Positions 4,530 through 45,864 of a DNA stretch of 64,000 bases are shown piece by piece. This stretch comes from Octopus vulgaris. Taxonomy: Eukaryota. The notes beneath the pieces were generated by a model that was given only the letters and a program-made list of their open reading frames with translations, was not told the DNA's origin and ran no database searches. The stretch covers positions 9,920,001-9,984,000 of the forward strand of contig OX597816.1 of the NCBI GenBank assembly GCA_951406725.2. The letters run 5' to 3'. Every line of letters begins with the position of its first letter. Position 1 is the first letter of the stretch. Position numbers and translations under genes: made by a program.

Positions 4530-6264
4530 TTATTATTATTATTCAGTAGTTTTATTTTTATAGCGTGCTTTCACTTCACTACCGAGTGCAGCTCTGTGTG
4601 CTTTGGGTATGTGCTGTGATTTGTTGTGATGCTCTGATGGTTACTGTATGGAAAGTGTTCTGCGTAGGATGTGTGCAGTGCCTAGTAGTGCAATTTTCTG
4701 TATGTTATATGTGTTTGTAAGTCCTGGTGTTTTTGTTATGTATTTGTCTGAATATTTCTTTATCATGCCTAATGCACCTACTATGATAGGAATTGTTTCT
4801 GTTTTCAGATTCCACATTCTAGTTACCTCTATTTCCAGGTCTTTGTATTTTGAGAGTTTCTCCATTTCTTTTAGAGACACGTTGTCATCTGCCGGTATTG
4901 ATACATCAATTAGAAAGCATTTTTTTCTTCATGATCTCTGACAACTATATCTGGTCTGTTGGCCTTAATTTCTCTATCTGTGTGTATCGGCATATCCCAG
5001 AGTATGGTTGCTTTCTCGTTTTCTGTGACCTTTTCTGGTGTGTGCCTATACCATCTTTTTTCTGTTGTTATTCCATAATGTTGGCATAGCTTCCAATGTA
5101 TGTAGGTTCCAACTCTGTCATGTCTGTGAATATATTCCTTCTTAGCCAGGACTGGGCAGTCAGAGATAATATGATTTATTGTTTCTTGTCCATCTCCACA
5201 TATTCTGCAGTTACTTGTAATATTTCTTTTCATTACATGTTTTTGGTAATTTCTGGTGGGGAGGCTTTGGTCTTGTGCTGCGATTAAAAATCCCTCTGTT
5301 TCTGCTTTGAGTCCTGAGCTTCTCAACCATTGCTGGGATTTTTCTTTGTCTATTTCTTTTGCGTTTAGTTTAGTGCAGTATTTACCATGAAGGGGCTTTT
5401 CTTGCCATCGTTTTATCATGGTTCGTTGCTGTTCTATTTTTAGTTTGGATTTCATTTGTTTTATAGCTTTTGTTGTTTCTTCATCATCTTCTTCTTCTTC
5501 TTCGTGTTTATTAGGTGGTATGATTTCTTGTTTGTATTTGTCAGCTTCCTTAAATACTGAGAACAGTTTTTTGTTTTGCTCGTGTTTTGCTGCTATCTGG
5601 ATCAGTTTTCCTTCCTTCTGAAGTAGGTATTTTTGCAGTCCTATGGTGGTTATTTTATAGTAGTTTTCCAGCTGTATAAGGCCTCTACCACCTTCTATAC
5701 GTTGTATATATAGTCTTTCTATGTCAGATTTTGGGTGATGCATCCTAGATCCTGTCAGTATTTTTCTTGTTTTCCTATCTATTTTGGACAGTTCATTTTG
5801 TGTCCAGTTAAGGATATTGTAGCTGTAACTTATAACTGGGACAGCTAAAGTGTTGATACCTATTATCTTGTTTTTAGCATTGAGCTCTGTTTTTAGTATT
5901 GATCTAACTCGTCTATAATATTCTTTTTTTAATTTTCTCTTTCATTTGTGTGTGTTGTGTCTTATCTAGTTCATGGATTCCTAAGTATTTGTAAGTTTGG
6001 CTTTGGTCTAATTCTTTTATTTCATTGGTTTTATCTAGTGTGATGTTGTTACTCTTAACTAGTTTTCCTCTTTTCATGGTTACTTTGGCGCATTTTTCTA
6101 ATCCAAATTTCATATCTATTTCTTTGGTAAATCCATGAACTGTCTTTAATAGTGTTTCCAGCTGTTTGTCATTTGCAGCGTATAGTTTTAGGTCATCCAT
6201 ATATAAAAAGTGGCTGATCGTTTTGCCGTAACATTTATATCCGCATCCAGTTCTATTTAGCATA

Positions 6265-6265
<1 letters not shown>
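4530..6265 (-). mobile_element. 5'-truncated R4/Dong-type non-LTR retrotransposon (RT + CCHC + restriction-like endonuclease)
   Basis: YMDD RT motif, YKYLG, GGRGL, CRICG..ETINHIISDC..RHD zinc knuckle, RPDIVV..IDVSIP..KLSKY endonuclease; (TAA)n at both ends. Confidence 0.92.
4641..6263 (-). pseudogene. RT/RLE polyprotein C-terminal half, two single-base frameshifts
   Basis: ORFs 5913-6263, 4910-5743 and 4641-4880 join into one frame if 1-nt indels at T7 runs 5924-5930 and 4920-4926 are corrected. Confidence 0.88.
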
Positions 6266-6266
<1 letters not shown>

Positions 6267-6309
<43 letters not shown>

Positions 6310-6399
6310 TCACTGCCTGGAATGGAACTCGGAATCTTGGAGTTAAGAATGGGGCTACTTACCCCAAAATTTCGAGTTCAATTCCAGGCAGTGACCTGA

Positions 6400-41219: not shown

Positions 41220-41760
41220 AAGACAAAATTACATCAAATTGGTGATAATGAATGTTCAATAAGTAAATTGTATGTAAGTGCAAGAATTTGCGAGGATCCA
41301 ATATTAGATAATCATTCCTTAATAAACTACAAGAATTCTTCAGCAATAAGTATTAAATAACCACTTCATAAGAAACCAGATTAATTAATGGTGATTGAAT
41401 GCCAGATGAGCAGGATATAAGGAACTGCATGTAATCTCTGATAATCCAATGTTAAACAAGCAATTTAGGAAGGAACTACACAGAATTAGTTATAATCACG
41501 GTTAAATAACCAAATTATAATGAGGTGTGTGGAACTGATGATTAACCAATTAATAGGAAACTTTAGGACTGGTGATAATCCAATGCTAATTAGCGAAATA
41601 TTGAAAACCAGATAAAACTGGTGACGATCCATTGTTAAATAACTAGAGTGTAAGAAAGTACATGAAATTAGAGATGATTGAATGTTAATTAAATAATTAA
41701 TAAGAAACTTAATGAATTTGGTGCCAATCCAATATTAACCAATTCATAAGAAATGTGAAG
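41220..41760 (+). repeat. Highly diverged ~48-bp tandem repeat
   Basis: Recurrent aagaaac..aattggtgataatccaatgttaa-like units; related units at 45545-45745. Confidence 0.6.
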
Positions 41761-41880: not shown

Positions 41881-42618
<738 letters not shown>

Positions 42619-43091: not shown

Positions 43092-43142
<51 letters not shown>

Positions 43143-43147
<5 letters not shown>

Positions 43148-43403
43148 AAATATTGAATTTCTAAATCTCTCGTAGAGACATGAACGGTGGTGGGGCGATA
43201 GAATGGTTGTATACTGTCAATCTAACAAGAAGGTGACAGTAGGGGTACACCACGCTGTACAGCCCTAGGATGCTTCCTAGGGCTATACAGCGGTGGTGTA
43301 CCCCTACTGTCACCTTCTTGTTAGATTGACAGTATACAACCATTCTATCGCCCCACCACCGTACATGTCTCTACGAGAGATTTAGAAATTCAATATTTCT
43401 TAT
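43143..43403. repeat. Near-perfect 261-bp palindrome
   Basis: Arms 43143-43270 and 43275-43403, 4-nt loop tgct; two mismatches and one 1-nt indel seen. Confidence 0.95.
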
Positions 43404-43493
43404 TTTGATAATCAGTGAATAGACTTCACTGAGTATAGATATATACAATTACGAAGTCGAGACAAATATCACCGGTTGACCGGTGTCTGCTAC

Positions 43494-43538
43494 TCTAGGC
43501 CGATGAAGGACAACAATCCTGAAACACGTGTCCCTAGA
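43494..43538 (+). ncRNA. Minimal type I hammerhead ribozyme fold (core variant CCGAUGA)
   Basis: stem I tctagg/cctaga; core C(C)GATGA; stem II agga-caacaa-tcct; GAAA; palindromic stem III acacgtgt; GTC triplet. Confidence 0.72.
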
Positions 43539-43607
43539 TGCAGTTTCGGCGGCCGGGGGTGTTTGTCTCCCCTTCGTATATGTATATAAGGACACAGGAA
43601 AAATGTG

Positions 43608-43986
43608 TCTTCCCAACTAAATGGTTCCGAGTTCAGACCCACTGCATGGTACCTTGAGCAAGTGTCTTCTACTATAGCCTCAGACCGACCAAAGCCTTGT
43701 GAGTTTATTTGGTAGACAGAAACTGAAAGAAGCCCATCATATGTGTGTGTGTGTATTTGTGTGTGTGTCTCTGTGTCTGTGCTTGTCCCCCACAACTGCT
43801 TGACAACTGGTGTTGGTCTGTTTACTTCCCTATAACTTAGCAGTTTGGCAAAAGAATCTGATAGAATAAGTACTAGGCTTAAAAAAAAAAATTAGTGCTG
43901 AGTTTGATTCCTTCAACTAAAATTCTTCAAGGCAGTGCTCCAGCATGGCTGTAACAGTCTAATGACTGAAACAAATAAACAATAAA
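43608..43986 (+). mobile_element. SINE family B, 5'-truncated
   Basis: Match from the B-box onward. Confidence 0.85.
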
Positions 43987-45348: not shown

Positions 45349-45864
45349 CAATAGTGAATTTTCCTCCAGTAAAAACGTTTACAACAAAATATCCTAAACT
45401 GAACATCAGTGTTAGACTAGTACTATGTATTGTATCTGAAATGGTGAAAGATACCCTTGGCCTTGGCAGAATCTAAAGTGTCACAACAAATATTATAAAG
45501 AATTATCTTTGTTCCAGCAATGTAGCAAAATCATTTGAACTGCAAAAATACATGAAATGGTTGATGATCTGATGTTTATCAATGAATTTTAATTGAAACT
45601 ATACAAAATTAATGATGACCTAATGTTAAAAATATATACCCATTTTATCAGGAACTGCTGGGAATTGGTGATAATGTCACGTTAAATGAGCATTTTATGA
45701 GAAACTGAATAAAGTTGGTGATCCACTGTTCAACCAATTCAGAATAAATTAATAGTTTTTCCAATTATTATAACAATATTTATAAATCACTTGTAATACA
45801 AATCAAACATATGATTATAAACTCTCATTAATAAAGTTGATATCTCTCAGAAATAAAATGAAAA

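What the first reader, a model, noticed from the sequence alone, without database searches (positions are those of the whole stretch)
43143..43590. Long palindrome coupled to a minimal type I hammerhead ribozyme: candidate Penelope pLTR or retrozyme unit
Seen: a 261-bp near-perfect fold-back, a perfect hairpin caccggt-tg-accggtg (43470-43485), then tctagg-CCGATGA-agga/caacaa/tcct-GAA-acacgtgt-C-cctaga, with all three stems intact and one core deviation (CCGAUGA for CUGAUGA). Known: Penelope-like elements carry minimal type I hammerheads with palindromic stem III (thought to cleave as dimers) and often have inverted 5' repeats. Inference: this is a recent non-coding PLE/retrozyme insertion whose 5' end formed by fold-back.
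Basis: partly seen in the sequence, partly recalled or inferred. Interest (0 to 1): 0.75.

Follow-up and report, generated by a model that had tools for sequence, protein, structure and literature searches.

The report
Penelope-type retrozyme with variant hammerhead core
This is one damaged copy of a young, protein-less jumping repeat present in hundreds of copies, whose predicted self-cutting RNA motif carries the same unusual core letter in nearly all copies and whose two-armed insertions were likely written by a Penelope-type retrotransposon enzyme.

Summary
The palindrome and hammerhead motif are real. They are one truncated insertion of a young 363-bp non-coding tandem unit, a retrozyme-type repeat (1,678 candidates; 40 scored at 94-100%). 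The odd core letter is the family state: 421 exact CCGATGA sites, 12 CTGATGA, 4 CCAATGA. The motif has canonical type I geometry, not minimal, and sits at the tip of a conserved ~150-nt rod. Insertions are two back-to-back arms in (TA)n. In 30 of 30 complete cases one arm ends at unit base ~75 and the other at ~130, with 8-12-bp target duplications where readable: the Penelope 'tail' footprint. Both arms share the source haplotype, and 13 of 29 pairs are not nested, which argues against simple fold-back. The 261-bp palindrome arises because both arms stopped at nearly the same base. Intact Neptune-type elements with the same footprint exist here, but no partner sharing sequence was found. Cleavage, expression and circles are untested. 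The scan noted this family and its kin on other DNA before.

The parts
43094..43142 (.). (TA)n microsatellite: insertion target at the left end
   Evidence: 74 of 95 canonical ends in the sample run into (AT)n
43143..43270 (-). Left arm: unit bases 1-130 inverted, its 3' end pointing outward at the fixed long end (unit 130)
43143..43197 (-). 55-nt 'tail' (unit 76-130) between the two fixed 3' ends, left-arm copy
   Evidence: end clusters at ~75 and ~130; coordinates
43269..43270 (.). Junction of the two arms: 2-nt microhomology, centre of the palindrome
   Evidence: 1-6-nt overlaps in 21 of 29 two-arm junctions
43269..43609 (+). Right arm: unit bases 358-363 then 1-337, 97% identical to the sample majority, cut off before the expected end at unit 75
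43349..43403 (+). Right-arm copy of the tail region (unit 76-130); short end site at 43348, long end site at 43403
43440..43588 (+). Predicted long RNA rod (unit 167-315) that extends hammerhead stem I; pairs kept across the family
43465..43481 (+).
43487..43543 (+). Type I hammerhead motif with canonical helix sizes; C4 at 43501; predicted cut after 43532
43609..43760 (+). Unrelated abundant repeat lacking its usual 5' part, fused to the broken right arm (likely later deletion)

Best explanation
This is a 3'-truncated insertion of a young 363-bp non-coding tandem repeat family that carries a type I hammerhead motif with C in place of U4, and it was likely copied into a (TA)n tract by a borrowed Penelope-like (probably Neptune-clade) reverse transcriptase-endonuclease. 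Shown: high copy number, tandem period, C4 as family state, two fixed outward ends paired one-of-each, short target duplications, shared haplotype of both arms, microhomology junctions. Inferred mechanism: the enzyme nicks both strands of AT-rich DNA about 8-12 bp apart; each nick primes cDNA on the same RNA, one from unit base 130 and one from base 75; both cDNAs run toward the RNA 5' side, stop at variable places and are joined back to back by microhomology. Here both stopped within about 6 nt of each other, which makes the 261-bp palindrome. The template is inferred to be a circle or an uncut multimer, because arms read through the cleavage site. The C4 hammerhead is inferred to be slow but functional, releasing monomers for circularisation as in other animal retrozymes. 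The right end was likely lost by a later deletion.
For: Copy number and youth. Period 363 and back-to-back arms. Ends: of 65 insertions picked by an exact hammerhead 17-mer on contigs C1-C4, 38 are two-armed; 30 have both ends at canonical sites and all 30 pair a 75 end with a 130 end (binomial p 2e-9). Target duplications of 8, 10 and 12 bp at three non-microsatellite sites (L141, L109, L094). Opposite arms differ at 3.6% of lineage-polymorphic sites against 37.6% between insertions, yet share only 12 of 461 rare variants, so they share a source and were not homogenised later. Both window arms carry G41C, seen in 2 of 228 reads of that position, i.e. only here. 76 of 95 arms cross the cleavage site, 9 cross it twice, 43 exceed one period, and only 4 of 95 5' ends fall at 255-265. 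Sister family with the same two-end pattern and a U3-A8 core. Intact RT + GIY-YIG elements in this genome insert in (TA)n with two ends about 30 nt apart (18 long, 12 short of 30). Literature: inverted 5'-truncated copy, tail at one end, microsatellite bias (PMC8557442, passages); 8-10-bp duplications (PMC3846280, passages); both-strand cleavage and two RT start sites bounding the tail (PMC11167929, parts 1-2 of 4).
Against: No autonomous element sharing sequence with the unit was found among three Neptune-type families and 30 GIY-YIG loci. The tail is 55 nt, longer than the 30-40 nt published. 15 of 29 pairs have the 75-arm nested in the 130-arm and 1 the reverse, so fold-back or template switching is not excluded for those. 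The window copy lacks its right end and target duplication, so its own 75 end is inferred. U4C 'considerably decreases activity in vitro' (PMC3088659). The active fold is 2.7 kcal/mol above an alternative fold, but U4 copies show a similar gap of 2.3. The sample was picked on the hammerhead 17-mer, which inflates read-through counts and conservation at 221-237. 5' ends are in mild excess at unit 355-10 (11 of 95, about 5 expected), so the coincidence of the two stops here may not be pure chance.
Confidence: 0.8

Rival explanations
1. The hammerhead is a dead passenger: C4 inactivated it, and the family spreads from uncut multimeric transcripts that need only the RT start signals.
For: U4C lowers activity. 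Anolis PLE insertion in vitro did not need hammerhead cleavage (PMC11167929). 8 of 9 Xenopus retrozyme dimers showed no cleavage (bioRxiv 10.64898/2026.07.22.740005). A G insertion in loop III in 78 of 162 copies is predicted to pair with C3-C4-G5 and lock the core, 5.4 kcal/mol below the active fold.
Against: In the hammerhead region only 1 of 46 positions has a substitution above 10%, in loop II, against 12 of 90 and 15 of 97 in the flanking parts (partly biased by sampling). Common variants in the rod keep pairing. The sister family keeps a hammerhead at the same place with compensated stems and core. C4 also dominates an unrelated family, 10,584 against 5,458.
Confidence: 0.25
2. The inverted arm arises by fold-back (self-priming) of one cDNA or RNA, as the first reader and PMC3846280 suggest.
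For: Palindromes at inverted junctions were read as self-priming on an antisense template (PMC3846280). The window's left arm is contained in its right arm. 16 of 29 pairs are nested.
Against: 13 of 29 pairs are not nested; 5' ends coincide in 1 of 29; strict 75/130 pairing is not predicted by fold-back.
Confidence: 0.12
3. The sequence is the stump (pLTR) of a coding Penelope-like element rather than an independent retrozyme.
For: Same footprint as coding PLEs in this genome. Retrozymes are proposed to derive from pLTRs.
Against: Upstream of a unit lies another unit, never ORF sequence, in the family loci examined. Four widely spaced end-motif pairs (two of this family, two of the sister family) proved to be local duplications or a LINE insertion.
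Confidence: 0.07
4. A locally expanded minisatellite or an assembly artefact.
For: Lies beside long microsatellites.
Against: Dispersed over at least 17 contigs with fixed ends and target duplications; the arms of the palindrome differ at several sites.
Confidence: 0.01

Closest known systems
Metazoan non-LTR retrozymes (Cervera and de la Pena 2020, PMC7229834; mussel 350-390 bp, axolotl HHR_Amex2)
   Same: Non-coding tandem unit of 363 bp, GC 44%, one type I hammerhead per unit with a 2-bp helix III and tetraloop, highly self-paired predicted circle (z -9.6), target duplications longer than 4 bp, PLEs in the same genome.
   Different: Core has C4 in nearly all copies. Copies are mostly short two-armed inverted insertions with two fixed ends, which the parts read (1-3 of 6; term search found no 'inverted' or 'microsatellite') do not describe. 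Cleavage and circular RNA are not shown here.
Endonuclease-bearing Penelope-like elements (PMC8557442, PMC3846280, PMC11167929)
   Same: Partial tandem plus inverted 5'-truncated copy, tail at one end only, AT-rich or (TA)n targets, 8-12-bp duplications, hammerhead upstream of the 3' ends.
   Different: No ORF; tail 55 nt rather than 30-40; canonical rather than minimal hammerhead geometry.
Minimal PLE hammerheads (PMC4209133; Lunse et al. 2017, not held, seen only as a citation)
   Same: Type I, short palindromic helix III able to pair between two copies (duplex -10.3 kcal/mol).
   Different: Helix I 6 bp with an internal loop and helix II 4 bp, not the 4-5 bp and 7-8 bp of the minimal motif.
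Natural U4C hammerhead variant of a viroid (as cited in PMC3088659)
   Same: Same core change.
   Different: There a rare variant; here the majority state of a spreading genomic family and of an unrelated larger one.

Membership tests
Metazoan non-LTR retrozyme | Non-coding tandem unit of about 150-450 bp, GC under 50% | tested here: met
   363 bp, GC 0.44, longest ATG-started frame 42 codons
Metazoan non-LTR retrozyme | One type I hammerhead per unit with canonical helix sizes | tested here: met
   Helix I 6 bp + loop + 4 bp, II 4 bp, III 2 bp + tetraloop; sizes from PMC4209133 and PMC7229834
Metazoan non-LTR retrozyme | Consensus catalytic core CUGANGA...GAAA...UH | tested here: not met
   U4C in 421 of 437 exact sites over the three patterns tested; all other core positions match. 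U4C is a known active natural variant with reduced rate, so this marks a variant.
Metazoan non-LTR retrozyme | Loop 1-loop 2 tertiary contacts | tested here: inconclusive
   A 3-nt UAC bulge and a 6-nt loop starting CAA are kept in this and the sister family; the match to the schistosome motif is recalled, figures were not available
Metazoan non-LTR retrozyme | Dispersed copies as dimers or multimers | tested here: met
   9 of 95 arms hold two cleavage sites; arms up to 1,115 nt
Metazoan non-LTR retrozyme | Self-cleavage in vitro | not testable with these tools
   needs a bench assay
Metazoan non-LTR retrozyme | Unit-length linear and circular RNA in tissue | not testable with these tools
   only assembled contigs of runs guessed to be RNA were available
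PLE-mobilised insertion | Inverted 5'-truncated copy next to a partial tandem | tested here: met
   38 of 65 insertions are two-armed
PLE-mobilised insertion | Tail at one end only (two fixed 3' ends) | tested here: met
   30 of 30; tail 55 nt
PLE-mobilised insertion | AT-rich or microsatellite target, 8-10-bp duplication | tested here: met
   74 of 95 ends in (AT)n; duplications of 8, 10, 12 bp
PLE-mobilised insertion | Sequence shared with the pLTR of an autonomous partner | tested here: inconclusive
   none in the families sampled; only 150 of 6,136 GIY-YIG candidates were scored
Autonomous Penelope-like element | RT + GIY-YIG ORF between pLTRs | tested here: not met
   no such ORF linked to the unit
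Minimal PLE hammerhead | Helix II 7-8 bp, helix I 4-5 bp, poorly defined loop 1 | tested here: not met
Rfam hammerhead families | Covariance-model hit | tested here: not met
   no hit at E<=5

The most novel reading that the evidence does not exclude
A retrozyme lineage has fixed a detuned, self-locking hammerhead: C4, then in half the copies an added G that pairs with C3-C4-G5, hold the ribozyme off unless two units dimerise or the PLE protein binds. One protected RNA circle is then copied by a PLE dimer from two fixed start points at once, one per nicked DNA strand, giving each insertion its 75/130 two-armed form.
Probability: 0.3. Interest if true: 0.72.

Novelty: new variant of a known kind. 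Interest (0 to 1): 0.48.

Why it matters
Retrozymes are proposed to borrow PLE enzymes, but the papers read argue this from co-occurrence and pLTR similarity. Here the insertion sites carry the PLE footprint with a strict one-of-each end rule, on a 363-nt substrate short enough for the existing in vitro PLE assay. The fixed C4 core and the loop III G insertion give natural variants to test how much ribozyme activity a retrozyme needs. Hammerhead searches that require CUGA would miss this family and over ten thousand motifs of another family in this genome.

Tried and rejected
Rfam scan: no hammerhead hit; microRNA hits are just the palindrome and (TA)n. Partner search: three intact Neptune-type families share targets and layout but no sequence with the unit; the PLE next to L162 is separated from the unit by (TA)n and faces away. 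Widely spaced end-motif pairs were duplications or a LINE insertion. U4 copies as an active sublineage: rejected, the 12 listed lie on many haplotypes and in L046 and L012 only one arm of the insertion has T; T is more frequent than the opposite-strand CpG change (12 against 4). The 16-nt hairpin as a functional element: rejected. C4 alone as a lock: weak, U4 copies misfold almost as much. Expression: no RNA holder on record was listed; contigs of four runs guessed to be RNA cover the unit and list no C-to-T change at position 4 at the 10% level, but they cannot show strand, ends or circles. Lunse et al. 2017 is not held, so whether it reports C4 variants is unknown. Searches 'hammerhead + U4C', 'hammerhead + CCGAUGA', 'retrozyme + cephalopod' and 'Penelope-like + octopus + Neptune' gave no paper on this family; supplements were not read.

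Full report
Observation. The palindrome, the 16-nt hairpin and the hammerhead motif are at the stated coordinates. The 461-nt stretch folds far below shuffles, but the hammerhead alone does not, and Rfam finds no hammerhead. The host genome is 2.8 Gb in 227 contigs. That it is an octopus is my recall of its repeats and the wording of earlier scan notes, not a tool result.

Family. A search with 43275-43600 gave 1,678 candidates; the 40 scored are 94-100% identical. The unit is 363 bp and runs head to tail, GC 44%, with no ATG-started frame over 42 codons. Its predicted circle is strongly self-paired (z -9.6 on 60 shuffles). The hammerhead sits at the tip of a rod (unit 167-315). Nearly all rod pairs are kept in 88-100% of 113-156 copies, one pair in 50%; common variants are mostly G-U swaps, with a few double changes. 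The structure came from one family member, so this count leans toward it.

The core. Exact 17-mers: C4 421, U4 12, opposite-strand CpG change 4; reversed controls 0. U4 copies lie on many haplotypes and sometimes in one arm only, so they look like later CpG decay. Helix sizes match the canonical type I layout, not the minimal motif (PMC4209133, parts 1-2 of 4; PMC7229834, parts 1-3 of 6). U4C is described as a viroid variant with much lower in vitro activity but enough in vivo (PMC3088659, one passage and section 8). C4 is not unique to this family: an unrelated hammerhead-like repeat has 10,584 C4 against 5,458 U4 sites. In 78 of 162 copies an extra G in loop III breaks the perfect palindrome and is predicted to pair with C3-C4-G5. 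Without that G, C4 and U4 copies misfold to a similar degree, so C4 alone is a weak lock.

Insertion anatomy. I sampled 65 insertions from the first 100 listed C4 sites (contigs C1-C4; sites already held were mostly not re-fetched). 3' ends cluster at unit ~75 and ~130; 5' ends are spread. 27 are one-armed and 38 two-armed; of these, 30 have both ends canonical and all 30 pair 75 with 130; 8 have one non-canonical end. 74 of 95 canonical ends run into (AT)n. Three non-microsatellite sites show duplications of 8, 10 and 12 bp. In the 29 simple pairs (L094, with four pieces, dropped), 21 junctions have 1-6-nt overlaps, 13 pairs are not nested and 16 are, and one has coincident 5' ends. Over 107 loci, opposite arms mismatch at 3.6% of polymorphic sites, tandem units at 5.0%, different insertions at 37.6%; rare variants are shared between arms in 12 of 461 cases. 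So each insertion comes from one source and then decays independently.

The window copy. The left arm is unit 1-130 inverted, ending in (TA)n. The right arm starts at unit 358 with a 2-nt overlap and runs to 337. Both arms carry a variant found nowhere else in the sample. The palindrome is long because both arms stop at nearly the same base. At 43609 the right arm is fused to another repeat that lacks its usual start; a later deletion is the simplest inference, and the lost end is predicted to be unit 75.

Machinery. This footprint matches PLE insertions: inverted 5'-truncated copy, tail at one end, microsatellite bias (PMC8557442, passages), 8-10-bp duplications (PMC3846280, passages). In vitro a PLE protein cuts and extends both strands and starts at two RNA sites that bound the tail; hammerhead cleavage was not needed and required the protein (PMC11167929, parts 1-2 of 4). 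This genome holds at least three families with intact 775-781-codon frames; RT and, in two of three, GIY-YIG domains were detected. I call them Neptune-type from the cysteine motif before the GIY-YIG domain (PMC8557442); no tree was built. One family shows two ends about 30 nt apart in (TA)n, one of each in both divergent pairs held. None shares sequence with the unit. A sister retrozyme family (361 bp) aligns along the whole unit, has a U3-A8 core, shares the long-end motif and shows two ends 59 nt apart; the shared motif has 2,855 exact matches. One sister insertion (L221) has the same end on both arms.

Template. 76 of 95 arms read through the cleavage site, 9 twice, and 5' ends do not pile up there (the first count is inflated by sampling). 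A cut linear monomer is therefore not the usual template; a circle or an uncut multimer fits, and my data do not separate the two.

Verdict. A real, young, PLE-mobilised retrozyme-type element. The class is known, and its PLE link is argued in a 2026 preprint (10.64898/2026.07.22.740005, parts 1-3 of 5). The fixed C4 core and the strict two-end rule make it a variant with direct tests. The scan had already noted what appears to be this family and several kin; those notes are not independent support. Interest 0.48.

Noticed in passing
L216:2234-5684, L115:1455-3192, L144 near 2927, L227 near 1338: A LINE-like element with a zinc-knuckle ORF1 is inserted at unit 192-208 with a 17-bp duplication in two loci, and related 5' ends start at unit ~198-200 in two more. 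This agrees with earlier notes on Tx1 elements targeting retrozyme starts.
   Followed up: partly
L091:4739-5290; L215, L217-L226, L228-L233: Sister retrozyme family, 361-bp unit, U3-A8 core, arrays up to 2 kb, two fixed ends; apparently more abundant than this family.
   Followed up: partly
L234-L245; L093:4022-4050: Very abundant repeat with a short hammerhead-like motif, C4 in 10,584 and U4 in 5,458 exact sites, ending in (TA)n.
   Followed up: partly
L081, L204, L088 and L246-L275: Three very young Neptune-type PLE families with many identical intact frames; two have a separate upstream ORF of about 470-480 codons overlapping the RT frame, and a U3-A8 hammerhead-like motif in the pLTR.
   Followed up: partly
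L152, L155, L160, L164, L167, L168, L180: Old dispersed hammerhead-like motifs with a U4 core, the same stem III and nearly always a 14-nt but hypervariable stem II; some share 60-67% downstream sequence.
   Followed up: no
window 6467 (+): Second hammerhead-like motif (U4 core, longer stem II) of another family; C4 versions of it appear.
   Followed up: no
window 4913-6377 (-): Reverse-transcriptase-like open frames of another retroelement (recalled resemblance; not scanned).
   Followed up: no
window 41882-42618: About 740-bp (CAT)n microsatellite; AT-rich 50-bp degenerate repeats at 41226-41754 and 45545-45749.
   Followed up: no
L151, L153, L162, L165, L178: Subfamily about 88-93% identical with CCGACGA core: also C4, same two ends.
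   Followed up: partly
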